From contig NZ_CP179200.1 in assembly GCF_051201565.1 (NCBI RefSeq), forward strand, positions 900,001 through 932,000: a DNA stretch of 32,000 nucleotides, given 5' to 3'. Position numbers and translations under genes: made by a program. The notes beneath the pieces were generated by a model. It saw only the letters and a program-made list of their open reading frames with translations, was not told the origin of the DNA and ran no database searches. Below, in pieces: positions 1 through 29,398 of this stretch. The stretch's first letter is position 1. Every line of letters starts with the position of its first letter. This stretch comes from Pseudothioglobus sp. nBUS_23. Lineage in GTDB: Bacteria > Pseudomonadota > Gammaproteobacteria > PS1 > Pseudothioglobaceae.

Positions 1-294
1 AATCCTGAGTTCGCCTTTTGGTTCGACCTTGCCCTCTCTGATTCTATCTTCTGAGCATTCGACACTTGTTAAGATATTTTTAACATCATCAAGATACTGT
101 TCGCCAGCCTCAGTTAAGTTTATATTCCTTGTAGTGCGGTTAAGTAGTCTTACTCCTAATGCAGATTCTAAGGTATTAATACGACGACTCACTGTTGCAG
201 CACTTGTGCTTAGTCTATCTGCAGCTAAATTAAAACTTCCTGCTTCAACCACAGCCTTAAATGTCTCTAAATCAGTAAAAGTATATTGTTTCAT
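1..294 (-). CDS. LysR-family transcriptional regulator, N-terminal winged-HTH part (gene continues beyond the window start)
   Basis: Absent from the ORF track because it has no stop inside the window. The reverse complement from ATG (294..292) reads MKQYTFTDLETFKAVVEAGSFNLAADRLSTSAATVSRRINTLESALGVRLLNRTTRNINLTEAGEQYLDDVKN..., the canonical LysR HTH signature. It is open for all 98 codons to the window edge. The listed + ORF 29..352 is its antisense shadow. Confidence 0.85.
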   Translation of the reverse strand, partial: MKQYTFTDLETFKAVVEAGSFNLAADRLSTSAATVSRRINTLESALGVRLLNRTTRNINLTEAGEQYLDDVKNILTSVECSEDRIREGKVEPKGELRI

Positions 295-296
295 AT

Positions 297-336
297 TATG
301 CAATAGTATATTAATAAAGTCGATATTTATTGCATA
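297..336. promoter_or_regulatory. Inverted repeat TATGCAATA-N22-TATTGCATA next to the LysR start codon; candidate LysR operator
   Basis: Perfect 9-bp arms at 297-305 and 328-336, 31 bp centre to centre (about 3 helical turns). It lies in the 169-bp divergent intergenic region between the LysR gene and the small ORF at 464. Confidence 0.3.
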
Positions 337-463
337 TTGTAAATCATTATAATTTTGTTTTCAATGACTCATCGCTATTTATCTGCAGAGGCGTAGCAAT
401 ATTTAGTCAGCCAGAACTATAAGTCAAAATCTGGCGTTTTTTTAATAAACTAAAGGAAGAATA

Positions 464-619: not shown

Positions 620-651
620 TAAAAATTGCAGCTCCTAACCACGGAGCTGCA
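620..651 (-). terminator. Intrinsic terminator of the minus-strand aminotransferase operon (its hairpin may also stop the + strand small ORF)
   Basis: 9-bp perfect stem TGCAGCTCC / GGAGCTGCA (627-635 / 643-651) with a 7-nt loop. On the minus-strand RNA it is followed by ATTTTTAA. It sits between convergent genes ending at 613 and 677. Confidence 0.6.
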
Positions 652-676: not shown

Positions 677-1912
677 TTATATTTGTTTTAAAGCACTAAT
701 GAGTTTGCTTACATCTTCATGATTATTGTAGTGAACCATGCTGGTTCTTACAACACCATCATCCACGTCTATACTCAGAGCCATTAAACATCTCCAGGCA
801 TAGAAATTATCATTCCTTGTTGCAATCCCATGCTTTACAAGCTCACTACTTAAATCTTTGGATGACTTGTTTTTCATGGTAAAGGCAATTGTTGGCGCTC
901 TATCTTTGCCAGTGATTGTTTTCTTGCCGATGAGTCTTATGTCACTTCTATTACTCAAGTAATCAAGAAGTGGATTTGCAATCTCCTTTTCATGTTCTGC
1001 AATTAATTCATTTACCTTATGAATTTTCTCTCTAATAGGAGGGTTTTCACCAGGGAAGTGGTGCTCAAAGAGGTTCATAAAGTATTCATAAACTCCAACT
1101 AAACATGAGAGCTCTTCATGATTTGGACCACCTGGATTAAGAGTGTAGGGCACATCACCCTCTAAAAACTCATGATTTTGATTAGGTAGTTGATTAAGAA
1201 TCTCTTTTTTTCCATACAAAAGACCTAAATGAGGCCCATACGTCTTATAAAGACTAAAAGCATAAAAATCAACGTCTAGGCTCTTTACATCTGGGAATCC
1301 ATGGGGAGCATAAGAGACACCATCTCCAACGATGAATGCATCGTATTGATGGACCAGTTCAGCGATTGATTTTAGATCGTTAATAGAGCCAACGATGTTA
1401 GAGCAATGAGTAACGGCAACAATCCTTGTTTTCTCAGATAGGAGTTCTTTAAGGTCATCCACATCAAGCTCGGCAGTATCGCTATTGGTTTGCCATTCTT
1501 TGACCACCATGCCGTGCTCGGCTAATCGTCTCCAGGCGCCAATGTTAGCCTCATGATCCTGGTTCGTAACAATAACCTCATCACCAGGCTTCAAGAGGCT
1601 TCTTATAGCATTGGATAAGACATACATGTTCATCGTTGTAGAGCTACCAATAATGATTTCATCGTTTCCAGCATTAATCATTTCAGCAAAATAATTAGTT
1701 GCTTTATCCATATTTTCTCCAGCTATAGCCGAGGTATCAAACTCTGCGTATGGCTGAACTTTAGTAGAGGTCATAAAATGATTTAAGCGCTCGATTACAG
1801 TAGATGGGACATAGCTTCCACCAGCATTTTCAAAAAAGGACCATTTGGCACTTAATGGATCATTAAAAGCTGGGAATTGTGTTCTTACATAATCAATGTC
1901 AAGTTTTGGCAT
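677..1912 (-). CDS. Class V PLP-dependent enzyme, cysteine desulfurase-like (NifS/SufS/CsdA fold) aminotransferase/lyase
   Basis: 411 aa. Motifs: HCSNIVG, PLP-lysine block FSLYKTYGPHLGLLYG, and a C-terminal block GIATRNDNFYAWRCLMAL...RTSMVHYNNHEDV that aligns by eye with SufS GIAVRTGHHCAMPLMAY...RASLAMYNTHEEV. SD AAGGAGA lies upstream, and the start is 18 nt after the aldolase-like gene. Confidence 0.85.
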   Translation of the reverse strand: MPKLDIDYVRTQFPAFNDPLSAKWSFFENAGGSYVPSTVIERLNHFMTSTKVQPYAEFDTSAIAGENMDKATNYFAEMINAGNDEIIIGSSTTMNMYVLSNAIRSLLKPGDEVIVTNQDHEANIGAWRRLAEHGMVVKEWQTNSDTAELDVDDLKELLSEKTRIVAVTHCSNIVGSINDLKSIAELVHQYDAFIVGDGVSYAPHGFPDVKSLDVDFYAFSLYKTYGPHLGLLYGKKEILNQLPNQNHEFLEGDVPYTLNPGGPNHEELSCLVGVYEYFMNLFEHHFPGENPPIREKIHKVNELIAEHEKEIANPLLDYLSNRSDIRLIGKKTITGKDRAPTIAFTMKNKSSKDLSSELVKHGIATRNDNFYAWRCLMALSIDVDDGVVRTSMVHYNNHEDVSKLISALKQI

Positions 1913-1930
1913 GATTTCTCCTTAAATCAA

Positions 1931-2656
1931 TTAATTTTTGTAATCGGGCTCTTCTTTATCTAATATTCTCTTGAGAGCATCAAAATGCAGTCCTGATGCA
2001 TCATAATCTTGCCACTGCTGTGCAGTTTTTTTGGCGACTTTGTGGCTAACTATATGAAGCTTTTGACCCGTTTGATAAGCTCCAATAAGTGTTTGACAAG
2101 ATTTTTCAAAGTAATATAATTCATCAAAAGCACTAGCAACTGTTTTAGCAGCAGTCAAAACGCCATGATTACCCATCAAAAGGACAGGGTTGTCACCAAG
2201 AAGCGTGCTCAATCGCTCAGCCTCTTTGCCTAAACCCATGCCACTGAAGTCTCTATCAATCGAGACCCTTTCATAAAATCGCATTGTGTTTTGATCGATA
2301 GGCTTCATTTCTTTGTCATCTAGCGAGGATAGTATGGTTGCATACTTCGGGTGAGCATGCAAAATACAACGCGCTTGAGGATTATTTCGATGAAGCGCAC
2401 TATGAATAGCCCAAGCCGTAGGATCAGGAGCATTAGGCTGATTCATCGTATCTTTGTTGTTGGCATCAATCATTATCAAGTCACTTGCTGATATTTCTGA
2501 GAAATGCATGCCTAAGGGATTTAAGAGAAATTTTGATCCGCTCTCATCAACCGCTAAACTAAAGTGGTTGGCTACAGCTTCGTGCATATTTAGCCTTGCG
2601 GCCCATCGAAAAGCAGCAGCAAGATCTTCTCGTTCTTGAGTTAAGTCATGATTCAT
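1931..2656 (-). CDS. Class II aldolase/adducin N-terminal domain family protein
   Basis: 241 aa. The metal-ligand style blocks ILHAHPKYAT and LMGNHGVLTAAKT are typical of the FucA/AraD/MtnB/adducin-head fold. Specific activity cannot be assigned. Confidence 0.8.
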   Translation of the reverse strand: MNHDLTQEREDLAAAFRWAARLNMHEAVANHFSLAVDESGSKFLLNPLGMHFSEISASDLIMIDANNKDTMNQPNAPDPTAWAIHSALHRNNPQARCILHAHPKYATILSSLDDKEMKPIDQNTMRFYERVSIDRDFSGMGLGKEAERLSTLLGDNPVLLMGNHGVLTAAKTVASAFDELYYFEKSCQTLIGAYQTGQKLHIVSHKVAKKTAQQWQDYDASGLHFDALKRILDKEEPDYKN

Positions 2657-2705
2657 ATTTGCTAAGTTTAACCTCTTAAATTAATGAAGGCAAAACAAAT
2701 GCAGA

Positions 2706-3428
2706 TTAGGCGTCAGGGTTTCCGATGGTTGTTGTGTAGCTAAACATATCAGCTCTGCCTGTTGTGATTCTAAACTCTACTAAGCCCTTGTCCTTAGCAT
2801 AGGAGTGTCGATTTAAAATAACGACTGGATCGCCTTTATTAATGTGAAGTATTTCAGCAATCTCGTCATCAGAGATGCCCGCTGTTAAAACTTCCTGTGA
2901 TGAGGTAATTTGTGTGTCGAATTGCTTAAGAATAACCGCATATAAGAGATCAGGAATGTGAATTGAGTGATCTTGCAAGCCTTCAACAACCTCAGCAACC
3001 CACCATGACTTTTCAACAATAATAGGACTTTTTTTATCGATATAGCCAAGCCTCTCAAGATAAATCACGTCATCTCCCTGATTGATTCCAAGCTGAAAGG
3101 CTATTTCTGCGGAGGCTTTTTGTTTAACTCGGACTGGAGTTGTTTTGAAGATACGTATTGATGAACCGTCTTGCTTTCCATAGCTAAAGAAATTAAAGAT
3201 ACTATTGTCAAATCCATGGTCTGAGACATAGGTTCCTTTTCCATGATGTCTGTAAAGCACTTTTTGATATTCTAGTTTGTCAATCGCTTTTCTTACCGTT
3301 CCTATACTGACATTTAGCTTATTTGAGAGTTGAGATTCAGAAGGAATCAAGTCACCAATTATGAGCTCACCACTATTAATTTGATTGTTAATAAAGTCGA
3401 TTACTTTTTGATAAAGTTTTTGTGTCAT
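2706..3428 (-). CDS. GntR-family transcriptional regulator, HutC subfamily (wHTH + UTRA effector domain)
   Basis: 240 aa. N-terminal LPSESQLSNKLNVSIGTVRKAIDKLEYQKVLYRHHGKGTYV is the GntR HTH signature, and the length and C-terminal half fit a UTRA domain. It is divergent from tctA. Confidence 0.9.
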   Translation of the reverse strand: MTQKLYQKVIDFINNQINSGELIIGDLIPSESQLSNKLNVSIGTVRKAIDKLEYQKVLYRHHGKGTYVSDHGFDNSIFNFFSYGKQDGSSIRIFKTTPVRVKQKASAEIAFQLGINQGDDVIYLERLGYIDKKSPIIVEKSWWVAEVVEGLQDHSIHIPDLLYAVILKQFDTQITSSQEVLTAGISDDEIAEILHINKGDPVVILNRHSYAKDKGLVEFRITTGRADMFSYTTTIGNPDA

Positions 3429-3550
3429 TATGATTAAGTAGTGATTTTTTGTTGAATATTTTAAATATTATTTTGGCTCTATTTATATTGATTTAATCAG
3501 TTATTTCTACACTTTGAATTTATTTTTTTCTGTGTAGTTAAATTTTTTTA

Positions 3551-3579
3551 TTGACAATTAAATATCGTAAGTGTAGCAT
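3551..3579 (+). promoter_or_regulatory. Sigma70-like promoter for the tctABC operon
   Basis: TTGACA (3551-3556), 17-nt spacer, TAGCAT (3574-3579). It lies about 70 nt upstream of the tctA ATG, and SD GAGGGG lies just before position 3648. Confidence 0.45.
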
Positions 3580-3584
3580 GCTTT

Positions 3585-3620
3585 ACTCATGTATATGAGT
3601 TTTTATAGTCATATATATGA
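3585..3620. promoter_or_regulatory. Two operator-like palindromes immediately downstream of the -10 box (candidate GntR/HutC binding sites)
   Basis: ACTCAT-GTAT-ATGAGT (3585-3600) and the perfect 12-bp palindrome TCATATATATGA (3609-3620). The core TGTATA resembles HutC-subfamily half-sites. Their position overlaps the predicted transcription start. Confidence 0.4.
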
Positions 3621-3647
3621 ATTAATATGTGTTATTGAGGGGACACA

Positions 3648-5129
3648 ATGGAATTCTTAAATTATTTTGATAATGTTTTTACTGTTTATCATATCGCACT
3701 TTTAGTTGGCGGTACATTTGCAGGCATCATTCTTGGCGCTCTCCCAGGGCTTAGTCCTACAATGTCAGTTGCTCTTCTAATCCCATTTACTTTTCATATG
3801 AAGCCTGAAAGTGGTTTAATTCTACTTGGCGCTATGTATACGGCAACAGTAGCTGGTGGTGCAATAAGTGCCATACTGGTTAACGTTCCGGGAGCCCCTG
3901 CTAATATAGCTACGGCAATGGATGGTCACAAAATGGCCCAGAGTGGTAAAGCCAAAGATGCTCTCCATTATTGTTTTATGAGTTCTTTTGTTGGCGGTAT
4001 TTTCGGTGTGTTCATTCTAATATTTTTTACACCTCCTCTCGCAGCATTGTCTCTTAAGTTTATGTCAACTGAGTTATTCTGGGTTGCTATTCTAGGAATC
4101 ACTATTATTGCTACTTTGGATTCAAAGTCAGTAATTAAAGGGTTGATATCTGGTTTGTTTGGGCTCATGCTTGCAACTATTGGGGAGCACCCTACAAGCG
4201 CTATGGAGCGATTTGTTTTTACTGATCACCTAGAAGGTGGAGTTCATATCGTTGTTGGTCTTATTGGCTTATTTGCGATGCCCCAAGTTTGGAATCTTTT
4301 AGAGAATTTTTATGGCCGTAAAAATGAAGTATTCTCTGCTACTGGTGACTCAACGTTAGCACAATCTTTTAGGCTAGTTTCTGGAAAAATTAAAGCCCTT
4401 TCAATAGGCTCTATTATAGGATCTGTAATTGGAATAATCCCTGGTGCAGGAGGTCAAATTGCAGGTATTGTTGCTTATGACCAATCTAAAAAAGTAAGCT
4501 CAAATAGATCGAACTATGGAAAGGGTGAGCCTGAGGCGATTATTGCTGCAGAGAGCGCTAATAACTCCATGGTAGGGCCTTCATTAATTCCACTTTTAAC
4601 CTTAAGTATTCCTGGAAGTCCAACTGCAGCGGTCCTGCTTGGTGGCTTGCTGATTCATGGAATCTTTCCAGGGCATGACATCTTTACAAAAAATACAGAG
4701 GTTGTTTGGACGTTTATTGATTCTTTAATCATTGCACAGATCTTGATGTTAATTATTGGACTTTTTTTAAGTCGCCATAGTAAGTGGATCATGAAAGTTC
4801 CAGACAACTATATGGCAGTTGGTATCTTACTATTAGCGGTATTTGGCACCTACAGCATACAGAATGACTATTCTGATGTTCTCATTATGTTTGTTTTGGG
4901 AACTATTATGTACTTTGGAGGTAAGGCTGGTTTCAGTCCTGTTCCTGTTGTACTTGGCTTAATTTTGGGCACAATGACCGAAGAAAAATTCCTTCTAGGT
5001 AATATGATAGGAAACGCAAAGGGTAGCTCCTTTCAACACTTTACCTCAGGAACAATTAACCTTATTCTAATAACATTATGTTTTGCCTCAATTGCTTATG
5101 GCATCTACTCTAGTCGAAAATCTAAATAG
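3648..5129 (+). CDS. tctA: Tripartite tricarboxylate transporter (TTT) large permease TctA
   Basis: 493 aa and polytopic. The N-terminus GGTFAGIILGALPGLSPTMSVALLIPFTF, IPGAGGQIAG and LTLSIPGSPTAAVLLG are typical TctA blocks. Confidence 0.9.
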   Translation: MEFLNYFDNVFTVYHIALLVGGTFAGIILGALPGLSPTMSVALLIPFTFHMKPESGLILLGAMYTATVAGGAISAILVNVPGAPANIATAMDGHKMAQSGKAKDALHYCFMSSFVGGIFGVFILIFFTPPLAALSLKFMSTELFWVAILGITIIATLDSKSVIKGLISGLFGLMLATIGEHPTSAMERFVFTDHLEGGVHIVVGLIGLFAMPQVWNLLENFYGRKNEVFSATGDSTLAQSFRLVSGKIKALSIGSIIGSVIGIIPGAGGQIAGIVAYDQSKKVSSNRSNYGKGEPEAIIAAESANNSMVGPSLIPLLTLSIPGSPTAAVLLGGLLIHGIFPGHDIFTKNTEVVWTFIDSLIIAQILMLIIGLFLSRHSKWIMKVPDNYMAVGILLLAVFGTYSIQNDYSDVLIMFVLGTIMYFGGKAGFSPVPVVLGLILGTMTEEKFLLGNMIGNAKGSSFQHFTSGTINLILITLCFASIAYGIYSSRKSK

Positions 5130-5133
5130 AATT

Positions 5134-5565
5134 ATGAATAGACCTTTTAAAATTTCTACAGTTCTAATCACTCTTTTCAGTGCATTCTTAGTTTATGCAT
5201 CTTTTGTCTTAGGAAATAGTGAAGATTACTTATTCCCAAGGCTTATCTCAGGAACAATTGCTGTGCTATCCCTAATGCTTTGGTTTGAAAAGGGCGATGC
5301 AGACAAATCAACTAATTTCAAGGACTTAATGCCAGGTGTTGCTATCGCAACCGCATTTATCCTGTCACTTAAAATATTAGGCTTTTATTTGGCCTCTATG
5401 ATCGTGTTCTTTACTCTTGTGATGTATTACAGCAAGCCTACAGAACCAAAAGACTTTTGGCGTGTGCTACTCATAAAACTGGGTGTCACCATTGTGTTCT
5501 CTCTCACACTTTATGCGTTGTTCACTCTGCTTTTAAAGGTTCGCACACCAGAAGGTTTGTTTTAA
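5134..5565 (+). CDS. tctB: TTT small membrane subunit TctB
   Basis: 143 aa with 4 predicted TM helices, lying between tctA and tctC. I place the start at ATG 5134 (MNRPFKISTV...), 4 nt after the tctA stop. The track start at 5083 would overlap tctA by 47 nt. Confidence 0.75.
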   Translation: MNRPFKISTVLITLFSAFLVYASFVLGNSEDYLFPRLISGTIAVLSLMLWFEKGDADKSTNFKDLMPGVAIATAFILSLKILGFYLASMIVFFTLVMYYSKPTEPKDFWRVLLIKLGVTIVFSLTLYALFTLLLKVRTPEGLF

Positions 5566-5580
5566 TAAAAAGGAGAAGAA

Positions 5581-6540
5581 ATGAAAATAGTAAATATTAC
5601 AAAAGTAGCCTTATTGGCAATTGCATCTTTGATGCTTATGCCAGCTCAGGCTGACTACCCTGATAAGCCAATTGGCGTCATGGTAGCTTATGGACCAGGA
5701 GGAGCAACTGACTTCCAAGCTAGGATTGCAACTCTCGCATCTGGAAAGGAAGGACTTATTGGCCAACCTATATACATCCTTAATAAGCCAGGCGCTGGCG
5801 GAAGAAAGGGTTGGAACTGGTTTGCTAGCGAAGCCTCACAAGATGGATATATGTTAGGCGCTTATAACGTGCCTCACTTTATTGCTCAGTCTATTGTGTT
5901 TGATACAAAATATAATATTGACAATCTTGAGCCCGTAGGTAACTGGGGTGCAGATCCTGCTGTATTAATCGTAGGAAAAGATAGTCCCTTTAATACAGTT
6001 GGAGAATTGCTAGCTCATGCAGAAGCAAATCCAGGAGCTGTAACAATCAGTGGTGCTGGAAAGTTTGTGGGTCATCACATCGCTTTCTTGCAGTTCGCAA
6101 AAGCATCAGGTGCTAATTTAACATACATACCTGCTTCAGGCGGTGTAGACGCACTTAGAATGGTTAAAGCTGGTGAGACAGTTGCCGGGTTTAATAATCT
6201 TTCTGACTCTGCAAGAAGTGCAGCTGATCTAAAGATTCTAGCGGTTGCTGACCTTACAAGACACGAGTACCTTCCTGATGTTCCTACATTAATGGAAAGT
6301 GGTGTCGATGTTGATGACTCTAGTGTTAACTTCCGTGGACTGATGGTTCCAGCAGGAACTCCTCAGGATGTTATTGATTACCTTGCTAGCAAGGTGCCTG
6401 ATATGTTTGGTGAAAAGAAGACAGTTGGTAAGATGAAATCAACTAATTCACCTGCAAGGATAATGACTAGACGAGAAGTTGTAAGCATGTGGAATGAAAG
6501 ACAGGTTTATTTAACTGAGCTTTTAGCTGGTCTTCAGTAA
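5581..6540 (+). CDS. tctC: TTT periplasmic substrate-binding protein (TctC/Bug family)
   Basis: 319 aa. It has a signal peptide ending AQA/DYPDKPI, the characteristic Bug-family mature N-terminus, and PGGATD and KPGAGG blocks. SD AAGGAG lies upstream. Confidence 0.9.
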   Translation: MKIVNITKVALLAIASLMLMPAQADYPDKPIGVMVAYGPGGATDFQARIATLASGKEGLIGQPIYILNKPGAGGRKGWNWFASEASQDGYMLGAYNVPHFIAQSIVFDTKYNIDNLEPVGNWGADPAVLIVGKDSPFNTVGELLAHAEANPGAVTISGAGKFVGHHIAFLQFAKASGANLTYIPASGGVDALRMVKAGETVAGFNNLSDSARSAADLKILAVADLTRHEYLPDVPTLMESGVDVDDSSVNFRGLMVPAGTPQDVIDYLASKVPDMFGEKKTVGKMKSTNSPARIMTRREVVSMWNERQVYLTELLAGLQ

Positions 6541-6566
6541 AGTCTATATATTTAAAATAAATATAG

Positions 6567-6600
6567 CTAGGGAGTGTTTTTCAACTCCCTAGTTTTTTTT
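6567..6600 (+). terminator. Rho-independent terminator after tctC
   Basis: 9-bp stem CTAGGGAGT / ACTCCCTAG (6567-6575 / 6584-6592), an 8-nt loop, then T8 (6593-6600). Confidence 0.8.
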
Positions 6601-6616
6601 CAAAAATTGATTCAAC

Positions 6617-9520
6617 ATGACTATCCAACATAAAACACTAATCGAGCAGCTCGTTTCAGATGCGAGAGACGCCCAAGAAATAATTAATCATTACTCTCAA
6701 GAACAGGTTGACGAATTAATTTTAGCAGTTGCCTGGGAGGTTATTCAGCCTGAAAACAACCAAGAGCTCTCTGAGATGGCGGTAAGCCAAACAGGTCTTG
6801 GAAATGTTGAGGATAAAAAGCGCAAAAATAGACGCAAAACTATTGGACTTTTAAGAGATTTAAAGGATGTCAAAACGGTCGGAATTATAGACGAGAATGT
6901 TCAAACTGGGATTATTGAAATTGCTAGGCCAGTTGGCGTTATAGGGGCTATTGTTCCGTCAACAAACCCTATTGCAACACCACTAAATAAAGTGATTAAT
7001 GCACTAAAGTGTAGAAACGCAATCATTCTAGCTCCATCCCCTAAAGGCGCCAAGGTCTGTTCAAGAGTTGTAGAATTAATACAAATTGCCTTAGTGCGTA
7101 TTGGAGCGCCAAAAAATATTGTCCAATCTTTGCTTGAACCGATTAGCAAAGAGGACACCAACGAATTATCTAATTTAGTTGATCTTATTGTAGCTACTGG
7201 ATCACAAAACAATATACAGCGAGCACTTCAAAGTGGAACGCCAACTCTCGGGGTAGGGGTTGGCAATGTTCCATCAATCATAGATGAGAGCGCGAATCTG
7301 GATGACGCTTCTCATAAAATTATGACTTCTAAAACATTTGACAATGCAACAAGCTGCTCTTCTGAGAATAGCATCGTTGTCCATGAAAAGGTCTATGACT
7401 CTATGATTAGTCGTCTCATTGAAGAGGGAGGCTCACTTTTGAATGGTGATGAGAAACTAAAACTTCAAGGCACCATGTGGAATGATAGAGGGGTGATTAA
7501 TCGTGATGTTATTGCAAAAAGAGCTGCTGAAATTGCTAAGCTAAGTGGCCTTAGTAGCAATCATCTTGATTCAAAATTTTTAATGGTTGAGGAGCAATAT
7601 ATTGGCTCAAGCTACCCATTCTCAATGGAAAAATTATCACCAGTTTTGACTGTTTACAAAGCCAAAGACTTTGATCATGCTGTCAACATCGCAAAGGACA
7701 TTCTGAATAATCAAGGCAGAGGACACTCCTGCAGTATCCACAGTCAAAATGAAGATAACATCTTTAAACTGGGCCAAGAGCTCCCAGTCTGCAGAATCAT
7801 CGTCAATCAAGCGCATTGCTTTGCAACCGGAGGCAACTTCGATAATGGACTGCCATTCTCGTTGTCGATGGGTTGTGGAACCTGGGGCAACAATGTTACC
7901 GATGAAAACTTAAATTATAAGCACTACCTGAATACTACCAAGATAGTTAAAACTATAAAAAATAATGAGCCCTCAGAAAAGGATATTTTTTCTAGTTACT
8001 GGAAAAAATATTCTCTTGAGCACTCAACAATCACCGAATTGGTCGATCAATTTGCAAATGAAACACCGAACAAAAACTATTTGATTGATGCAGACCTCGA
8101 TCTATATGTTACGTATAGCCAATTACAAAAAGATATTTCGAATCTAGGTGCTTATTTTGAAGAAAACAACATCAAAGCAAACGACAAGGTTGGTTTTATG
8201 CTTGATAACGGTTACGCCTCAACTTTATTGTTTATAGGTGCCATGTATCATGGTGTTGTCATTGTTCCATTAAATGTTTTAGCTGGCTCAAAGCAGATTA
8301 ATTACACAATTGATCACTCTGAATGTAAGCTTATCTTTTCATCAAATTTCTATATTTCAAAATTCAAAACTATTTTAGAATCATCAAATGCAAGAGTTGT
8401 TCAGTATAGCGGGATTGAGAGCCTTACTTTTGCAAAGCAAACAAGTGTCCATTTGACTCCTACTCAGCCTAATTCACCAGCAGTTTTGATTTATACTTCA
8501 GGAACAACAGGGGTCCCTAAGGGCGCTCTTTTATCTCACAAAAATGTGCTTTCAGGAGGAAGAAATACTGCACTTGCGCATGAGGTTGTTTCAACTGATA
8601 TCTCTTTTTGTGTTCTTCCTTTGTACCACATTAACGCTGAGATGGTATCGATTGCAAGCGCTCTTGTAAGCAACAGCTGCGTGGTCACAGTTGGAAAGTT
8701 TAGTGTCAGTAATTTCTGGCAAATTATTGAAAAATATCAGTGCACGTGGTTCAGCGTAGTTCCGACCATTATTAACTATCTTTTAAATGACGACTTTGAT
8801 GTTAAGACTTTGAATTTGAAGAATCTCCGCTTTGGGCGATCAGCATCAGCACCTTTGTCTCCAGAGGTTCACAAAAAATTTGAAAAAACCTTTAACATAA
8901 AGATTATTGAGACAATGGGTCTTACTGAAACAGCTGCTCAAATTCTTTCCAACCCACCTAGTGGAGGCAAGCATGGATCTGCAGGGAAGGCTTATGGAAA
9001 CGAAGTCAGAATCATTGATGATCAGGGGAATTATCTATCCGCTGGCACAACAGGAGAGTTGGTCATTAAGGGTGATAATGTGCTCTTAGAGTATTTCAAA
9101 AATGAGGAAGCTACAACTGGTGCTTTTAGCGAAGATGGCTATTTTTTAACTGGAGATCTCGGTGTCGAAGATGATGAAGGTTTCTTTTTTATTACCGGTA
9201 GAAAAAAAGAACTCATAATTAAAGGTGGCGAAAATATTTCTCCTAGAGAGATTGATGACACGCTTTATAAACATAATGCAGTCCTAGAAGCATGCACATT
9301 CGGTATTGAAGATGACAACTATGGCGAAGAAATATCGGCCTGTGTTTACTTGAAGGACGATCTTGTTGCCAATGAAGCAGAGCTTTTAGATTTATGTAAA
9401 GCAGATCTCGGAGAATACAAGACGCCCAGACAAATTATTTTTGTTGATGAGCCTTTACCAAAAGGTCCCTCTGGAAAAATTCAAAGACTTAAGATTGCAA
9501 GTCAATACAGAAGCGCTTAG
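6617..9520 (+). CDS. Bifunctional fusion: CoA-acylating aldehyde dehydrogenase (N-terminal ~450 aa) + AMP-forming acyl-CoA ligase (C-terminal ~500 aa)
   Basis: One uninterrupted 967-aa ORF. The N-terminal half has the AdhE-N/EutE/PduP-type block TSKTFDNATSCSSENSIVV with the catalytic Cys. The C-terminal half has the ANL motifs LIYTSGTTGVPKGALLSH, ETMGLTET, TGDLG, GRKKELIIKGGENISPREID and PKGPSGKIQR. Confidence 0.85.
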   Translation: MTIQHKTLIEQLVSDARDAQEIINHYSQEQVDELILAVAWEVIQPENNQELSEMAVSQTGLGNVEDKKRKNRRKTIGLLRDLKDVKTVGIIDENVQTGIIEIARPVGVIGAIVPSTNPIATPLNKVINALKCRNAIILAPSPKGAKVCSRVVELIQIALVRIGAPKNIVQSLLEPISKEDTNELSNLVDLIVATGSQNNIQRALQSGTPTLGVGVGNVPSIIDESANLDDASHKIMTSKTFDNATSCSSENSIVVHEKVYDSMISRLIEEGGSLLNGDEKLKLQGTMWNDRGVINRDVIAKRAAEIAKLSGLSSNHLDSKFLMVEEQYIGSSYPFSMEKLSPVLTVYKAKDFDHAVNIAKDILNNQGRGHSCSIHSQNEDNIFKLGQELPVCRIIVNQAHCFATGGNFDNGLPFSLSMGCGTWGNNVTDENLNYKHYLNTTKIVKTIKNNEPSEKDIFSSYWKKYSLEHSTITELVDQFANETPNKNYLIDADLDLYVTYSQLQKDISNLGAYFEENNIKANDKVGFMLDNGYASTLLFIGAMYHGVVIVPLNVLAGSKQINYTIDHSECKLIFSSNFYISKFKTILESSNARVVQYSGIESLTFAKQTSVHLTPTQPNSPAVLIYTSGTTGVPKGALLSHKNVLSGGRNTALAHEVVSTDISFCVLPLYHINAEMVSIASALVSNSCVVTVGKFSVSNFWQIIEKYQCTWFSVVPTIINYLLNDDFDVKTLNLKNLRFGRSASAPLSPEVHKKFEKTFNIKIIETMGLTETAAQILSNPPSGGKHGSAGKAYGNEVRIIDDQGNYLSAGTTGELVIKGDNVLLEYFKNEEATTGAFSEDGYFLTGDLGVEDDEGFFFITGRKKELIIKGGENISPREIDDTLYKHNAVLEACTFGIEDDNYGEEISACVYLKDDLVANEAELLDLCKADLGEYKTPRQIIFVDEPLPKGPSGKIQRLKIASQYRSA

Positions 9521-9599
9521 GCTAACAATCTAGTTCACTCAAGAGATCAAAGAATTTACATTTTCGGGTAAACTATGCTTATCGAAATGAGGTACGTTG

Positions 9600-10562
9600 A
9601 TGGCACTACTTGATGATTTAGCTCGCAAGGCTAAAATTAAAAATTCTCGAATTTTATTACCAGAATGCTCTGATCCAAGAGTCTTAGAAGCTGCCCATCT
9701 GATTTCGGAAAAAAATTTAGCTCAAATCGTACTTTTTGATGAAGAGACAGCATCTTCTTTAGGTGTAAGTTCAATCAACCTAAAAAACGAAGATTTGAGG
9801 CTCGAATATGCTCAAACATTGTTTGAGCTTAGAAAGCATAAAGGCGTCACTCTTGAATCCGCATTAGAAATGCTTTCAAGCCCCAGTGTTTGTGCTATGG
9901 TTGCATTGCATAGATCTGAGGTTGATGGCGTTGTCACCGGTGCGATCACTCCGAGCCAGGAAGTTTTGAGTAGCGCTCTCAGAATCATTGGAGTCTCTGA
10001 GAGTAGCAGTCTTGTTTCAAGTTTGTTTTTAATGGTTTTTGATAAAGACCACAAAAGATACGGCGAAAACTTAATTTTTACAGATTGCGCCATGAATATT
10101 TCGCCAAGCTCTGATGAACTTGCTGAGATTGCTTGTAACGCATATGAGACGGCCCAATCTTTTCTGGATGAAGATCCGAAGCTCGCAATGCTCTCTTTTT
10201 CTACTAATCAGAGCGCTAAGCATAGTGAGGTAGACAAAGTTAGGCAGGCCACTGAAATTGTAAGATCTAGGCTTCCAAGTGCCCAAATCATTGGAAATGT
10301 GCAGTTGGATGCAGCGCTTGATTCAGAGGTGCTAAAGATTAAAGACTCTGATTCCTCTTTTCCAACACCTGCCAATGTCTTTGTCTTTCCCAATCTAGAT
10401 GCAGGCAACATTGGTTACAAACTCGTTCAGCGATTCTCTGGAGCCAAAGCAATTGGCCCTATTCTTCAAGGGCTATCCAAGCCCGTGAATGATTTATCTA
10501 GAGGTTGCAGCGTTGATGAAATTGTGAATACAGTTGTTGTAACAGCGAACCAGGTTAAGTAG
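9600..10562 (+). CDS. pta: Phosphate acetyltransferase, short PTA_PTB-only type
   Basis: About 320 aa. Blocks: ILLPECSDPRVLEAA, FTDCAMNISP, FPNLDAGNIGYKLVQR and LSRGCSVDEIVNTVVVTA. I prefer ATG 9600 (GAGG SD 7 nt upstream) to the track's TTG at 9597. There is no terminator between it and the fusion gene. Confidence 0.85.
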   Translation: MALLDDLARKAKIKNSRILLPECSDPRVLEAAHLISEKNLAQIVLFDEETASSLGVSSINLKNEDLRLEYAQTLFELRKHKGVTLESALEMLSSPSVCAMVALHRSEVDGVVTGAITPSQEVLSSALRIIGVSESSSLVSSLFLMVFDKDHKRYGENLIFTDCAMNISPSSDELAEIACNAYETAQSFLDEDPKLAMLSFSTNQSAKHSEVDKVRQATEIVRSRLPSAQIIGNVQLDAALDSEVLKIKDSDSSFPTPANVFVFPNLDAGNIGYKLVQRFSGAKAIGPILQGLSKPVNDLSRGCSVDEIVNTVVVTANQVK

Positions 10563-10564
10563 GC

Positions 10565-12184
10565 TTACATTCCAATATAGTTTGGTCCACCTCCACCTTC
10601 GGGTGGCGTCCAGTTGATGTTTTGAGAGGGGTCTTTGATGTCACAAGTCTTACAGTGAAGACAGTTTTGAGCATTAATTTGAAAATAGTCTTCACCTTCC
10701 TTATCAATGATCTCATAAACGCCTGCAGGGCAATACCTCTGAGCTGGTTCATCAAAGAGCTCTTTGTTTCGAGTGAGAGGAATCGACGGGTCAGTCAGCT
10801 TAAGGTGAACAGGTTGATCTTCTTCGTGATTTGTTCCGGATAGGAACAAAGATGAAGTTATATCAAAACTAAGAACGTTGTCAGGAGCAGGGTACTCTTT
10901 CGCATAAAGAGGATTGTTTAGGTTCAAAGAATCACAATCTCTTTGCTCATCTTTAATCGTAAAAGGCAATGCGTTTCTAAAGATATTAGACTCGATAAAA
11001 TTGTATGCAGCACCCACATAAAAACCAAACTTATGCATTGCGGCACTAAAGTTTCTAGATTTATAGAGCTCCTGATAAAGAGAGCTGCCTTTGAACAAAT
11101 CATCAAAATCACAGATTTCTTCGTTGAGAATCTTATGGATATATTCTGCAGCAAGAATTCCTGACTGAAGAGCGCAATGACTACCCTTTATTTTGCTAGG
11201 ATTGAGTGTTCCAGCGTCACACCCAATAATCATCCCTCCATTAAAGTCCATCTTAACAAGAGAATTGATTCCACCCTTAGTGATAGCTCTAGCTCCATAT
11301 GAAACCCGCTTACCTGAATCTAAAAACTGTTTAATCTTTGGATGCTTCTTAAATTGTTGAAATTCTTGGAATGGGCTGTGACTTGGATTTGTATAGTTTA
11401 AATCAATAATCAAGCCTACTGCCACTCTCTTATTATCAAAATGATATAGAAAGCCACCACCAGTCGTCCCTTCATTTAATGGCCAACCCATTGTATGAAC
11501 GACATCTCCTGGGCTGTGATTATCATTATCTACTTCCCAGACTTCTTTAAAGCCAATAGCAAAGTGTTGTGGCGTTTTGCCTTCATCAAGATTAAACTCT
11601 CTGATTAATTGTTTTCCAAGATGACCTCTTGCACCTTCAGCAAAAATGGTCTGCTTAGCAAGAATGTCCATTCCAGGCGTGTAAGTTCCTTTTTGATTAC
11701 CTTCTTTATCAATTCCCATGTCGCCTGTGGATATTCCAATAACTCTGCCACTTTCATCTTTTAAGTAGCTTTGTGCAGGAAATCCTGGAAAGATATCAAC
11801 GCCTAACTCCATTGCTTTCTCTGAAATCCATTGGCAAAGCTCGCCTAAAGAAATAATATAGTTTCCTTTGTTGTGAAGGCTTTTAGGCATGAGCCATGAA
11901 GGCACTTTGATGCTTTTATTTTCTCCTGTTAACCAAAAGAGATCATCTTTTGCAACCGGAGTTTTAAGTGTGGGGCAATCTTTAGCGTCATCAGGAAAGA
12001 GATCAAAAAGTGTTTTAGGCTCAAAGACTGCACCTGAAAGAATATGAGAACCAATTTCAGATCCTTTTTCAAGAAGACAAACTGAAAGGTTGGGGTTGAG
12101 TTGTTTGAGTTTGCAAGCAGAAGCAAGACCAGAGGGTCCACCTCCAACTATCACTACATCATATTCAATAGATTCTCTTTCCAT
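10565..12184 (-). CDS. Electron-transfer flavoprotein:ubiquinone oxidoreductase (ETF-QO)
   Basis: 539 aa. It has an FAD fold (DVVIVGGGPSGL) and a C-terminal 4Fe-4S region (CPAGVYE...NAQNCLHCKTCDIKDP...NWTPPEGGGGPNY). Confidence 0.92.
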   Translation of the reverse strand: MERESIEYDVVIVGGGPSGLASACKLKQLNPNLSVCLLEKGSEIGSHILSGAVFEPKTLFDLFPDDAKDCPTLKTPVAKDDLFWLTGENKSIKVPSWLMPKSLHNKGNYIISLGELCQWISEKAMELGVDIFPGFPAQSYLKDESGRVIGISTGDMGIDKEGNQKGTYTPGMDILAKQTIFAEGARGHLGKQLIREFNLDEGKTPQHFAIGFKEVWEVDNDNHSPGDVVHTMGWPLNEGTTGGGFLYHFDNKRVAVGLIIDLNYTNPSHSPFQEFQQFKKHPKIKQFLDSGKRVSYGARAITKGGINSLVKMDFNGGMIIGCDAGTLNPSKIKGSHCALQSGILAAEYIHKILNEEICDFDDLFKGSSLYQELYKSRNFSAAMHKFGFYVGAAYNFIESNIFRNALPFTIKDEQRDCDSLNLNNPLYAKEYPAPDNVLSFDITSSLFLSGTNHEEDQPVHLKLTDPSIPLTRNKELFDEPAQRYCPAGVYEIIDKEGEDYFQINAQNCLHCKTCDIKDPSQNINWTPPEGGGGPNYIGM

Positions 12185-18868: not shown

Positions 18869-19483
18869 TTAGACGCTAGCTGGATTATCTAAATCGTGTC
18901 CTAAATCCTTAAGGTCTTGATAGCGATCACCAATTCTATGATGAGGTCTACCGCCAATTGAAGCACCCAGTGCAACTACAATTTCATCATCATTTGGTGC
19001 ATCTGGAATAGCCAGCTGAATAGTTAAGTAGTGAGACCGTCGTCCAGCATCATTCTTATCCATCAGTGGGATCATAATAGGAGCATTGGCACCAGCACGT
19101 GTGTTACAAAAAGAGAGGTAAGACTTAGCTCCCACCGCCTCCCGATAAAAATTGCCAAAACGAAGCGTATGGATAATGCCTGAGGCATGCTCAATTTCGC
19201 CTTTTAATCCCACAACCGCTGATTTTCCATAACCCTCAACATTTTCACCTGAGCCAGCCTCTTTTATAATCATAGAAGTAAGTAATTCTCCAAGACCTGG
19301 CGCAACATCTAAAATTCCTGGCTTAAGGTCATCAACAAATTTATTTGGACTGTGCAAGTCAACCCATGGGTTTTTAATGACTGCAAGGGCAGCAATTAGC
19401 TTGAGCGGCTTAGTAGCTTTTTTGTTACCCTCAACCATGGTTTCTTCAACATGTAAAAGCGTTTTTCTTATCTCTGCTGGCAT
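18869..19483 (-). CDS. Amino-acid-synthesis family protein (DUF1185 / AA_synth), function unknown
   Basis: 204 aa. The N-terminus IRKTLLHVEETMVEGNKKATKPLKLIAALAVIKNPW matches my recollection of the PF06684 family pattern. SD GGGAG lies upstream, 18 nt after the cupin gene. Confidence 0.7.
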   Translation of the reverse strand: MPAEIRKTLLHVEETMVEGNKKATKPLKLIAALAVIKNPWVDLHSPNKFVDDLKPGILDVAPGLGELLTSMIIKEAGSGENVEGYGKSAVVGLKGEIEHASGIIHTLRFGNFYREAVGAKSYLSFCNTRAGANAPIMIPLMDKNDAGRRSHYLTIQLAIPDAPNDDEIVVALGASIGGRPHHRIGDRYQDLKDLGHDLDNPASV

Positions 19484-19501
19484 TATCTGACTCCCTTGAG
19501 T

Positions 19502-19855: not shown

Positions 19856-19878
19856 GTTTTGGTAATAAATTGTTATTG

Positions 19879-29069: not shown

Positions 29070-29168
29070 TATGACCCCTAATAAATAAAATTAAAAGAGG
29101 GATTTAGAGAAAAAGGAATGCGCAAACAAGACCCTAACTCACCACCCATCGTAGTTTTAAGCTAAACA

Positions 29169-29252: not shown

Positions 29253-29398
29253 ATGTGAATTATATCTTTTTTTACTGACTGTGCAATAGTTAATTCTTGA
29301 ATTCTAATTGATCTTCCAGAAACTTAACATTAACAATACTTAAAGGGCAATAAGTCTTAGGTAAAATATGCCAAAAAGATTGAGTTAAATCTACACTT

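What the first reader, a model, noticed from the sequence alone, without database searches (positions are those of the whole stretch)
677..10562. GntR-controlled locus (TTT importer + ALDH-ligase fusion + short Pta + aldolase-like/desulfurase-like pair): candidate undescribed organic-acid or organosulfonate pathway
Seen: a HutC-type GntR gene (2706-3428) heads a minus-strand operon with a class II aldolase-fold protein and a desulfurase-like class V PLP enzyme. It is divergent from tctA-tctB-tctC, the fusion gene and a 321-aa PTA_PTB-only phosphotransacetylase. There is no ackA. Established: short pta genes typically accompany acetyl-phosphate-releasing enzymes, such as xsc-pta in sulfoacetaldehyde cleavage. 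TTT systems import di- and tricarboxylates and, as SlcHFG in Roseovarius, sulfolactate. Inference: the locus imports a small dianionic acid and activates and reduces it to an aldehyde, and a C2 unit then enters metabolism as acetyl-P and then acetyl-CoA. Sulfoacetate is the best-fitting named substrate, given the SauS-SauT-like fusion plus Pta. However, the key ThDP enzyme Xsc and any sulfite exporter or oxidase are not in this window, so the substrate remains open. Malonate, phosphonoacetate or another C2-C4 acid are equally allowed by what I can see.
Basis: partly seen in the sequence, partly recalled or inferred. Interest (0 to 1): 0.72.

Follow-up and report, generated by a model that had tools for sequence, protein, structure and literature searches.

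The report
Sulfoacetate uptake-and-breakdown operon, fused enzyme
This is most likely the already-described bacterial pathway for eating sulfoacetate, here in an abundant marine SUP05-relative with its two first enzymes fused into one protein, while the neighbouring aldolase-like/"desulfurase-like" gene pair is a separate module of unknown function.

Summary
The plus-strand genes are not an undescribed pathway. They form the known sulfoacetate route: a SauXYZ-type TTT importer, SauT ligase, SauS reductase, then Xsc and Pta.

Supporting evidence:
- The ALDH half passes NCBI's SauS equivalog model (689 bits, cutoff 600) and fails the EutE model.
- The TctC protein is 59% identical to TctCs in roseobacter tctABC-sauS-sauT clusters.
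- In a sister lineage the same operon, at the same ETF-QO anchor, reads tctABC-fusion-xsc-pta.
- In other relatives that pta closes a tpa-ald-xsc-pta taurine operon.

I did not find xsc in this genome's 32 kb window or in the 10 kb held beyond its left end.

New points are the single-polypeptide SauS-SauT fusion, which appears confined to this clade, a HutC-type regulator with a conserved CTCATATATATGAG operator, and the host, a Pseudothioglobus/Arctic96BD-19-type marine heterotroph.

The aldolase-like/PLP pair is separable from the sulfoacetate module. Sister lineages have the module without the pair, and 21 metagenome loci have the pair without the module. The PLP enzyme lacks the desulfurase cysteine and most resembles the retro-aldolase Fgm3.

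In eight loci that lack the sulfoacetate genes, the GntR DNA-binding domain is fused in frame to the aldolase-like protein.

The parts
3648..5129 (+). tctA: large permease of a SauXYZ-type tripartite tricarboxylate transporter (proposed sulfoacetate importer)
   Evidence: PF01970 at 431 bits. 54-55% identical to the TctA of roseobacter tctABC-sauS-sauT clusters. Syntenic in L002, L003 and L005-L010 and in L051.
5083..5565 (+). tctB: small membrane subunit. The real start is probably downstream of the listed TTG.
   Evidence: PF07331 at 49 bits over residues 28-156. The listed ORF overlaps tctA by 47 nt.
5581..6540 (+). tctC: periplasmic binding protein, candidate SauZ-type sulfoacetate receptor
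   Evidence: PF03401. 58-59% identical to the Ruegeria and Tateyamaria TctCs that sit directly before sauS-sauT, but only 32% to the differently arranged Sulfitobacter one. Thousands of near-identical copies in marine metagenomes. The Bilophila SauZ binds sulfoacetate with Kd 0.13 uM (PMC10413351). I could not compare the two directly.
6617..9520 (+). sauS-sauT fusion, 967 aa. Residues ~1-465 (nt 6617-8011) are an acylating sulfoacetaldehyde dehydrogenase. [quoted passage not shown]
   Evidence: NF047625 SauS equivalog at 688.8 bits (cutoff 600); EutE at 359 (cutoff 620). 51% and 42% identical to the Paracoccus SauS and SauT that lie 5 kb from xsc-pta. Catalytic motifs present. Only one other co-linear full-length cluster representative among 1.84 billion.
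9597..10562 (+). pta: phosphate acetyltransferase (acetyl-P to acetyl-CoA), the positional orthologue of the Xsc-linked pta
   Evidence: TIGR00651 at 337 bits (cutoff 311). No promoter- or terminator-like site in the 76-nt gap after the fusion. At the same ETF-QO anchor relatives have tpa-ald-xsc-pta, xsc|soeCBA-like|pta or fusion-xsc-pta. 53-59% identical to those Pta proteins.
2706..3428 (-). gntR: HutC-type (wHTH + UTRA) regulator, divergent from tctA, proposed repressor of the sulfoacetate operon
   Evidence: PF00392 plus PF07702. Present with the sulfoacetate genes in every lineage that has them, with or without the aldolase/PLP pair.
3551..3579 (+). promoter-like site for tctA (TTGACA-17-TAGCAT)
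   Evidence: 10 of 12 consensus matches. The TTGACA and the -10 region are conserved in the 8-sequence intergenic alignment and in L051.
3586..3621 (+). two operator-like palindromes, CTCATGTATATGAG (3586-3599) and GTCATATATATGAA (3608-3621), between the -10 and tctA
   Evidence: These are the only two matches in the 32 kb window (0.15 expected by chance). Conserved across lineages although the alignment averages 57% column identity. Present in L051 and in the loci that lack the sulfoacetate genes.
1931..2656 (-). class II aldolase/adducin-fold protein (PRK07490 family), function unknown, first gene of a separate two-gene module
   Evidence: PF00596, and NF005689 at 366 bits. HxH and NHG metal-ligand-like motifs are visible in the sequence. 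Homologues at 50-60% identity sit in betaine/choline-type catabolic clusters. No terminator separates it from gntR.
677..1912 (-). class V PLP enzyme of the Fgm3/UstD-like 'cysteine desulfurase-like' family; not a cysteine desulfurase
   Evidence: Best solved relatives are Fgm3 (263 bits, full length) and UstD. The SufS catalytic Cys aligns to Tyr, while the PLP Lys and the K-x-Y tyrosine shared with Fgm3 are kept.
627..651 (-). terminator-like hairpin ending the gntR-aldII-PLP transcription unit
   Evidence: Nine stem pairs, six of them G-C, followed by a T-run.

Best explanation
Two modules lie side by side.

Module 1 (2706-10562) takes up and catabolises sulfoacetate.
1. A SauXYZ-type TTT system (TctABC) imports sulfoacetate.
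2. The C-terminal AMP-forming ligase domain of the 967-aa fusion makes sulfoacetyl-CoA.
3. The N-terminal acylating aldehyde dehydrogenase domain (Cys247) reduces it with NAD(P)H to sulfoacetaldehyde.
4. Xsc cleaves that to sulfite and acetyl phosphate. Xsc is encoded outside this window.
5. The co-transcribed Pta makes acetyl-CoA.
6. A divergent HutC-type GntR probably represses the operon by binding two CTCATATATATGAG-like palindromes just downstream of the tctA promoter. Sulfoacetate or a pathway intermediate would release it.

Shown here: gene identities, family assignments, synteny, the conserved operator, and xsc inside or next to the same operon in sister lineages. Inferred: the substrate, the direction of the pathway, repression and its effector, substrate channelling by the fusion, and the presence of xsc in this genome.

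Module 2 (677-2656) is an aldolase-fold protein plus an Fgm3/UstD-like PLP enzyme. It rides on the gntR transcript but is evolutionarily independent of module 1. It most likely belongs to catabolism of some amino-acid or betaine-type compound through a C-C lyase step. Confidence in that function is low.
For: SauS assignment: NF047625 equivalog at 688.8 bits (cutoff 600), against EutE at 359 (cutoff 620).

Ligase half: 42% identical to the SauT-position genes of Paracoccus and Caballeronia, against about 25-30% to other ligases.

Importer: TctC and TctA are 59% and 55% identical to those of roseobacter lacI-tctABC-sauS-sauT clusters. The TTT binding protein SauZ binds sulfoacetate, and its homologues neighbour SauT and SauS in alpha- and gamma-proteobacteria (PMC10413351).

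Xsc in the clade:
- At least 7 shown metagenome scaffolds carry gntR|tctABC-fusion-xsc-pta|etfQO-etfAB-HK-RR. The xsc scores 1036 bits on TIGR03457 (cutoff 676) and that fusion scores 706 on the SauS model.
- In SAG loci L008 and L009, xsc ends about 5.5 kb from gntR.
- At the same anchor other relatives have tpa-ald-xsc-pta or xsc|soeCBA-like|pta.

Regulation: operator and promoter are conserved. There is no terminator or promoter between the fusion and pta.

Modularity:
- L008, L009 and L051 have gntR plus the sulfoacetate genes without the pair.
- 8 + 1 + 12 metagenome loci have the pair without those genes.

PLP enzyme: it lacks the desulfurase Cys and is Fgm3-like.
Against: - xsc is absent from the window. 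The 10 kb held beyond its left end shows no ThDP-enzyme gene. I could not tie any Xsc protein to this genome's own lineage.
- No sulfite exporter or oxidase is in the window.
- I could not compare TctC directly with the characterised Bilophila SauZ.
- No curated SauT model appeared among the top 25 families listed of 148, so the ligase assignment rests on synteny and about 42% identity.
- Nothing here is experimental.
- gntR, aldII and the PLP gene look co-transcribed, so some functional link between the modules cannot be excluded. In loci without the sulfoacetate genes the GntR HTH is fused to the aldolase-like protein beside pta, which points the same way.
Confidence: 0.8

Rival explanations
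1. The aldolase-like protein and the PLP enzyme act in the same GntR-controlled pathway as the importer, the fusion and Pta, either processing sulfoacetaldehyde or a precursor of sulfoacetate, or replacing Xsc.
For: - The pair follows gntR on the same strand with 49- and 18-nt gaps. No terminator appears until 651-627.
- The arrangement is conserved in L002, L005-L007 and in 32 metagenome loci.
- Relatives of the PLP enzyme make or break a C-C bond next to an aldehyde (Fgm3, UstD), so sulfoacetaldehyde is a conceivable partner.
- In loci without the sulfoacetate genes, the HTH-aldolase chimera still sits at the operator next to pta.
Against: - The sulfoacetate genes plus gntR occur without the pair in L008, L009 and L051.
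- The pair occurs without tctABC or the fusion in 21 loci. Twelve of these sit next to an unrelated ALDH-GMC-MR/MLE-HIBADH-like operon.
- Outside the clade the two families do not co-occur and sit in other contexts: an amino-acid ABC transporter with dihydropyrimidinase, and choline/betaine clusters.
- Neither fold is known to yield acetyl phosphate, which Pta needs (my own knowledge).
Confidence: 0.1
2. The operon handles a different small dianionic acid, such as malonate, 3-sulfopropanoate, sulfolactate or phosphonoacetate. It would activate and reduce that acid to the corresponding semialdehyde.
For: - The ligase half also scores 277 bits on a malonyl-CoA synthase subfamily model, below its 558 cutoff.
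- Its solved relatives include oxalate- and malonate-CoA ligases.
- No binding or activity data exist for these proteins.
Against: - The ALDH half passes the SauS equivalog cutoff.
- xsc lies between the fusion and pta in a sister lineage. Xsc acts on sulfoacetaldehyde.
- The Bilophila SauZ rejects isethionate and 3-sulfopropanoate.
- No genes for malonate-semialdehyde or phosphonate metabolism lie nearby.
Confidence: 0.05
3. This genome has no Xsc. The module then ends at sulfoacetaldehyde, which would be transaminated to taurine, reduced to isethionate or excreted, and pta would be a leftover.
For: - No xsc in the window, and no ThDP-enzyme gene on the 10 kb flank held.
- The region is a variable island with frequent gene loss.
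Against: - pta is intact, conserved and apparently co-transcribed.
- Xsc is very common in low-GC contigs of this clade; one variant alone is indexed in 764 blocks of the collection.
- L008 and L009, whose operon also lacks an internal xsc, carry xsc 5.5 kb away.
Confidence: 0.07

Closest known systems
Cupriavidus necator H16 sulfoacetate pathway: sauSTU plus a regulator, with Xsc and Pta (Weinitschke et al. 2010, as summarised in PMC10413351)
   Same: Same chemistry and enzyme families. [quoted passage not shown] The gene order is sauS before sauT.
   Different: - Here SauS and SauT are one polypeptide.
- The importer is a TTT system, not the MFS transporter SauU.
- The regulator is a HutC-type GntR. 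The Burkholderiaceae-type cluster I inspected (Caballeronia, L037) has an IclR-type regulator.
- pta is inside the operon.
Bilophila wadsworthia SauXYZ-SauS-SauCD cluster (Liu et al. 2023, PMC10413351)
   Same: A TTT importer whose TctC-family subunit binds sulfoacetate, and a SauS-type reductase.
   Different: Bilophila uses the ADP-forming ligase SauCD. It then reduces sulfoacetaldehyde to isethionate for cleavage by a glycyl-radical enzyme, so it has no Xsc/Pta branch. It is anaerobic.
'Hybrid' TTT + sauS + sauT clusters of roseobacters and sponge symbionts (PMC10413351 Fig. 6; PMC12625764)
   Same: Same gene order, tctA-tctB-tctC-sauS-sauT (Ruegeria L034, Tateyamaria L038). TctC is 59% identical.
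   Different: There sauS and sauT are two genes; in the annotated Ruegeria locus (L034) their coordinates overlap by 4 nt. The regulator is LacI-type, and no pta is attached.
Taurine operon tauR-tpa-ald-xsc-pta
   Same: In relatives the pta at the same ETF-QO anchor is the last gene of this operon, so the window's pta is its positional orthologue.
   Different: In the window tpa-ald-xsc is replaced upstream of pta by the sulfoacetate module.
Fgm3 (fusaoctaxin pathway) and UstD (ustiloxin pathway): fungal 'desulfurase-like' PLP enzymes
   Same: Full-length similarity to the 677-1912 protein. Both lack the desulfurase cysteine. The Lys-x-Tyr motif is shared with Fgm3.
   Different: Those are fungal secondary-metabolism enzymes. 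The bacterial TIGR01976 family has no assigned substrate. The neighbours here are an aldolase-fold protein and, nearby, a PhyH-type dioxygenase.

Membership tests
SauS (acylating sulfoacetaldehyde dehydrogenase) | Scores above the curated equivalog cutoff and better than the related EutE/PduP/AdhE models | tested here: met
   NF047625 at 688.8 bits (cutoff 600). EutE TIGR02518 at 359 (cutoff 620). AdhE at 402 (cutoff 951).
SauS (acylating sulfoacetaldehyde dehydrogenase) | Catalytic cysteine of acylating ALDHs | tested here: met
   Cys247 in FDNATSCSSENS is invariant in an alignment with 6 SauS-position proteins.
SauS (acylating sulfoacetaldehyde dehydrogenase) | NAD(P)H-dependent reduction of sulfoacetyl-CoA | not testable with these tools
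   Needs an enzyme assay.
SauT (AMP-forming sulfoacetate-CoA ligase) | ANL-superfamily ligase with core motifs, encoded next to sauS | tested here: met
   PF00501 plus PF13193. P-loop at 627 and A10 Lys motif at 948-954. Fused to SauS. 42% identical to the Paracoccus and Caballeronia genes in the sauT position.
SauT (AMP-forming sulfoacetate-CoA ligase) | Match to a curated SauT-specific model, or activity with sulfoacetate | tested here: inconclusive
   No SauT model among the top 25 families listed of 148; the best are generic acyl-CoA ligase models below their cutoffs. Activity is untested.
SauXYZ (TTT sulfoacetate importer) | TctA, TctB and TctC genes adjacent to sauS/sauT | tested here: met
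   Same order as in Ruegeria and Tateyamaria.
SauXYZ (TTT sulfoacetate importer) | TctC closely related to the characterised SauZ (the UniRef50_Q165A0 group) and binds sulfoacetate | tested here: inconclusive
   59% identical to roseobacter TctCs in sauST clusters. Binding is untested.
Xsc-dependent C2-sulfonate pathway | xsc (TIGR03457) in the same genome | tested here: inconclusive
   Absent from the window, and no ThDP-enzyme gene on the flank held. Present in-operon in L051-type scaffolds, 5.5 kb away in L008/L009, and at the pta anchor in other relatives.
Xsc-dependent C2-sulfonate pathway | pta linked to the pathway genes | tested here: met
   pta lies 76 nt after the fusion with no terminator between them.
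HutC subfamily of GntR regulators | N-terminal GntR wHTH plus C-terminal UTRA domain | tested here: met
   PF00392 at residues 5-68 and PF07702 at 102-229.
Cysteine desulfurase (SufS/CsdA/IscS) | Persulfide-forming catalytic cysteine in the C-terminal loop (…HHC…) | tested here: not met
   The SufS Cys aligns with Tyr in 'NDNFYAWRC'. All desulfurase equivalog models score far below their cutoffs.
Fgm3/UstD-like PLP C-C lyases | Full-length similarity, the PLP lysine, and the tyrosine two residues after it that was proposed as general base in Fgm3 | tested here: met
   263 bits over residues 5-410 against 9x4u. 'LYKTYGPH' aligns with Fgm3 'WYKVYGPH'. The proposed role of the Tyr comes from bioRxiv 10.1101/2023.03.21.533663.
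Fgm3/UstD-like PLP C-C lyases | Retro-aldol or decarboxylative aldol activity | not testable with these tools
   Needs an enzyme assay.
Class II aldolase/adducin fold | Pfam Aldolase_II domain with His metal ligands | tested here: met
   PF00596 at 148 bits. 'LHAHP' and 'GNHG' motifs are visible in the sequence. I did not check the ligands against a structure.

The most novel reading that the evidence does not exclude
Two readings the evidence does not exclude.

1. The SauS-SauT fusion is a dedicated channelling enzyme. It would pass sulfoacetyl-CoA directly from the ligase domain to the reductase domain, making sulfoacetate a significant and so far overlooked carbon and sulfite source for abundant marine SUP05-clade heterotrophs.

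2. The aldolase-fold protein is more than an enzyme. In eight related loci without the sulfoacetate genes it forms the C-terminal domain of a GntR-type regulator: 315 aa, in frame, under strong purifying selection, and sitting at the same operator next to pta. That would be a new GntR effector-domain class, or a 'trigger enzyme', tied to acetyl-phosphate or C2-sulfonate metabolism. Together with the Fgm3-like enzyme and nearby PhyH dioxygenases it would mark an undescribed catabolic route that hydroxylates a substrate and then cleaves it by a retro-aldol reaction.
Probability: 0.25. Interest if true: 0.65.

Novelty: new variant of a known kind. Interest (0 to 1): 0.4.

Why it matters
- Sulfoacetate rarely figures in marine organosulfur budgets, to my knowledge. 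This module sits in a globally abundant heterotrophic relative of SUP05. The search returned 3292 scored TctC homologues, and the 120 best are at least 82% identical and come from marine metagenomes. In relatives it lies next to genes for taurine catabolism and sulfite oxidation (sat, aprBA, a SoeABC-like trio). That suggests C2-sulfonates supply both acetyl-CoA and sulfite to this clade. No paper in the searched library links Thioglobus with sulfoacetate.
- The fusion is a ready-made construct for studying handling of sulfoacetyl-CoA.
- The presence/absence variants form a natural experiment on modular pathway gain and loss.
- For annotation, 'cysteine desulfurase-like' is a misleading name for the 677-1912 protein.

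Tried and rejected
1. In a Sulfitobacter plasmid a GntR gene and a class V PLP gene sit next to sauS-sauT, which looked like independent support for a link. Both are unrelated to the window proteins (BLASTP E = 2.5 and 0.3).
2. The homologue search with TctC returned only near-identical marine copies and could not reach the Bilophila SauZ. No supplementary sequences are held for that paper.
3. Literature searches for xsc, taurine or sulfoacetate in Thioglobus or Arctic96BD-19 gave nothing usable.
4. I tried to tie an Xsc protein to the window's own lineage through assembly accessions and contig lengths. This failed; all linked cases are sister lineages.
5. The aldolase-like and PLP families share none of the top-listed records in annotated plasmids, so no conserved pairing appears outside this clade.
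6. Weinitschke et al. 2010 (PMC2975148) is not held, so its details are cited only through PMC10413351.
7. I did not run structure prediction, because sequence-level family tests were decisive for the main question.

Full report
**Observation.** The ORF map matches the finding exactly. Pfam and NCBIfam confirm each assignment:
- 677-1912(-): a class V PLP 'cysteine desulfurase-like' protein.
- 1931-2656(-): a class II aldolase-fold protein.
- 2706-3428(-): a GntR with a UTRA domain, which is the HutC type.
- 3648-6540(+): tctA, tctB and tctC.
- 6617-9520(+): a 967-aa protein with an N-terminal aldehyde dehydrogenase and a C-terminal AMP-forming ligase.
- 9597-10562(+): a PTA_PTB-only Pta of 321 aa.

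No ackA, xsc or TauE-like gene is in the window. The rest of the window is ordinary chromosome: ETF-QO, etfAB, a CreBC-like two-component pair, dadA/dadX, glyA, nrdR, radA, pheA and hisC.

**Source organism.** The closest genomes are heterotrophic relatives of SUP05, namely Ca. Pseudothioglobus singularis and aerophilus, 'Ca. Thioglobus' MAGs and Arctic96BD-19 SAGs. The fusion protein is 72-89% identical in 11 of them. The window has about 38% GC.

**The plus-strand operon.**
- *Reductase half.* The ALDH half scores 688.8 bits on NCBI's equivalog model for acylating sulfoacetaldehyde dehydrogenase SauS (cutoff 600). It fails the EutE model (359 against 620) and the AdhE model. It is 51% identical to the SauS-position protein of a Paracoccus plasmid.
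- *Ligase half.* It is 42% identical to the adjacent SauT-position ligase of that plasmid. On that plasmid sauS-sauT-MFS lies 5 kb from xsc, a TauE-like gene, pta and a sulfite oxidase.
- *Active sites.* Both halves keep their catalytic motifs: Cys247, the P-loop at 627 and the A10 lysine motif at 948-954.
- *Importer.* TctC and TctA are 59% and 55% identical to those of the Ruegeria and Tateyamaria plasmid clusters, which are arranged lacI-tctA-tctB-tctC-sauS-sauT.

**What the literature already covers.**
- Liu et al. 2023 showed that a TTT system (SauXYZ) is the sulfoacetate importer of Bilophila. Its TctC-family subunit SauZ binds sulfoacetate with Kd 0.13 uM and does not bind isethionate or 3-sulfopropanoate.
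- The same paper reports that SauZ homologues in alpha- and gamma-proteobacteria are mostly flanked by SauT and SauS, with Xsc either nearby or elsewhere in the genome (PMC10413351).
- A 2025 study of sponge symbionts describes the same 'hybrid' TTT+sauST clusters (PMC12625764).

The pathway is therefore known, not undescribed.

**The missing Xsc.** Comparative data largely fill the gap.
1. In the SAG loci L008 and L009 the held DNA begins with the last 120 codons of a ThDP enzyme. That fragment scores 175-185 bits on the two Xsc models, against 57 for the next family, and is up to 85% identical to annotated Xsc proteins. It lies about 5.5 kb from gntR, in the order xsc-DUF924-…-aceK-aceA-iclR-gntR|tctABC-fusion-pta.
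2. Looking up one clade Xsc protein returned at least seven shown, independently assembled 58-74 kb scaffolds. They read gntR|tctA-tctB-tctC-fusion(968 aa)-xsc-pta|etfQO-etfA-etfB-HK-RR, which is the window's own flank. That xsc scores 1036 bits on TIGR03457 (cutoff 676), and that fusion scores 706 on the SauS model.
3. On the same scaffolds a second xsc copy, identical at all 1773 nucleotides, closes a tauR-like/tpa-like/ald/xsc cluster. It is followed by sat, aprB, aprA and a SoeABC-like trio.
4. In other relatives the same ETF-QO anchor holds tpa-ald-xsc-pta or xsc|soeCBA-like|pta. The window's Pta is 53-59% identical to these, against 40% to the Paracoccus Pta.

The pta at this anchor is thus the clade's Xsc partner, and the sulfoacetate module is a cassette sitting immediately upstream of it.

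I could not show xsc in the window's own genome. It is absent from the window, and no ThDP-enzyme gene appears on the 10 kb held beyond the left end, which carries LysR, panB, PhyH, psuG and others.

**Regulation.**
- The gntR-tctA spacer contains TTGACA-17-TAGCAT at 3551-3579.
- Two palindromes follow it: CTCATGTATATGAG (3586-3599) and GTCATATATATGAA (3608-3621).
- These are the only such sites in the 32 kb window, where 0.15 would be expected by chance.
- They are conserved across lineages whose spacers are otherwise only 57% identical on average, including the xsc-containing lineage.
- Their position downstream of the -10 fits repression.
- No promoter- or terminator-like site separates the fusion from pta.

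**What is new in module 1.**
- In every plasmid homologue I inspected, sauS and sauT are two genes; in the annotated Ruegeria locus (L034) their coordinates overlap by 4 nt.
- A scan of 1.84 billion 50%-identity cluster representatives found a single other co-linear full-length fusion (967 aa, 65% identical). The nearest unfused relatives are 53% (ligase) and 48-50% (ALDH) identical.
- The fusion therefore looks like an innovation of this clade. It probably arose by loss of the sauS stop codon. That origin, and any channelling of sulfoacetyl-CoA between the domains, are inferences.
- None of the four papers in the library that mention sulfoacetyl-CoA or its ligase was seen to describe a fusion, judging by their listings and the passages I read. 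None links Thioglobus with sulfoacetate.

**The minus-strand pair.**
- *PLP protein.* It is not a cysteine desulfurase. The SufS catalytic Cys aligns to Tyr, and all desulfurase equivalog models fail. Its best solved relatives are fungal. Fgm3 matches over the full length at 263 bits; it is a PLP enzyme reported to carry out a retro-aldol cleavage of a gamma-hydroxy amino acid. UstD is a decarboxylative aldolase. The window protein shares the Lys-x-Tyr motif with Fgm3.
- *Co-transcription.* gntR, the aldolase-like gene and the PLP gene look co-transcribed. The only terminator-like hairpin is at 651-627.
- *Independence.* The pair is nevertheless evolutionarily independent of the sulfoacetate genes. 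L008, L009 and the L051-type scaffolds have gntR plus the sulfoacetate genes without the pair.

A metagenome scan with the PLP protein returned 80 loci. The 53 loci with enough flanking sequence fall into four classes:

| Class | Arrangement | Loci |
|---|---|---|
| A | window arrangement | 32 |
| B | pair beside pta; no tctABC or fusion | 8 |
| C | pair beside pta; no gntR at all | 1 |
| D | pair divergent from an ALDH-GMC oxidoreductase-MR/MLE-HIBADH-like operon, with PhyH dioxygenases downstream | 12 |

- The class D gene set recurs around the aldolase-like homologue on a Paracoccus seriniphilus plasmid, in a betaine-type context.
- On other plasmids the PLP family sits with an amino-acid ABC transporter and a dihydropyrimidinase.

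I therefore reject the single-pathway reading. My best guess for the pair is a C-C lyase step in catabolism of an amino-acid or betaine-like compound, held with low confidence.

**An unexpected by-product.** In all eight class B loci the GntR winged-helix domain (about 68 residues) is fused in frame to the almost complete aldolase-like protein, giving a 315-aa protein.
- Pfam finds GntR at residues 5-68 and Aldolase_II at 85-264.
- The UTRA domain is gone.
- The operator is retained about 45 bp upstream (measured in L098), with pta divergent.
- The HTH-coding part shows dN/dS of about 0.03-0.2, with synonymous divergence of 0.19-2.5 and above 0.5 in all but one pair. This is an old, selected gene and not debris.
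- The chimeric alleles are scattered on a neighbour-joining tree of the PLP gene, which suggests recombination or repeated loss.

This is why I leave some probability on a functional tie between the aldolase-fold protein and the pta/C2-sulfonate system.

**Verdict.** The locus is a new variant of a known system, with fused enzymes, a GntR regulator and operator, a pta-anchored cassette and a marine SUP05-clade host. Interest is moderate.

Noticed in passing
L098:7029-7976 (also L089, L099, L112, L115, L117, L119, L124): In loci that lack tctABC and the fusion, the GntR wHTH is fused in frame to the aldolase-like protein, giving 315 aa with GntR and Aldolase_II domains. The operator is kept upstream with pta divergent. 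dN/dS in the HTH part is 0.03-0.2. It may be a new effector-domain class for GntR regulators.
   Followed up: partly
L051:9001-10773 and L052:9001-10773 (same 74-kb scaffold, 20 kb apart): Two xsc copies are identical at 1773 of 1773 nt, plus 27 nt upstream. One sits inside the sulfoacetate operon and one closes the taurine cluster. The same structure appears in at least seven shown scaffolds from separate assemblies, so it is a recent duplication or gene conversion.
   Followed up: partly
L052:1-19773 and L051:1-1897: A contiguous 'sulfonate island' in a sister lineage. It runs from a tauABC-like transporter through a DAO/GcvT-like dehydrogenase, a MocR (TauR-like) regulator, tpa-like, ald, xsc, sat, aprB and aprA to a SoeABC-like Mo-enzyme trio, then gntR and the sulfoacetate operon. 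This links sulfonate cleavage to sulfite oxidation.
   Followed up: partly
L129:1672-7153 and 9252-11534; L150 likewise: In 12 metagenome loci the aldolase-like/PLP pair is divergent from an ALDH-GMC oxidoreductase-MR/MLE-HIBADH-like (-OYE) operon and is followed by two PhyH dioxygenases and a GNAT. The same gene set surrounds the aldolase-like homologue on a Paracoccus seriniphilus plasmid (L042).
   Followed up: partly
window 29157-29265 (-): A cobalamin riboswitch (RF00174, 33.8 bits against a gathering score of 31.5) lies upstream of a TonB-dependent receptor (27072-29069) and cobA (26456-27049).
   Followed up: no
window 1-352: The listed plus-strand ORF 29-352 is probably spurious. In related loci (L002:2383-3261, L050:2061-2939) the opposite strand encodes a 292-aa LysR regulator whose 5' part runs off the window's left end. 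Some relatives also carry a small DoxX-like gene between it and the PLP gene, which the window lacks.
   Followed up: partly
L008:294-5798, L043-L045, L069-L075: In several lineages xsc is followed by DUF924, an HbpS-like gene, malate synthase G, an RraA-like gene, aceK, aceA and iclR. This places the glyoxylate shunt, which assimilates acetyl-CoA, directly beside the C2-sulfonate genes.
   Followed up: no
window 18869-20694 (-): Three consecutive ORFs (204, 117 and 271 aa) have no NCBIfam match at E <= 1e-10. I did not examine them further.
   Followed up: no
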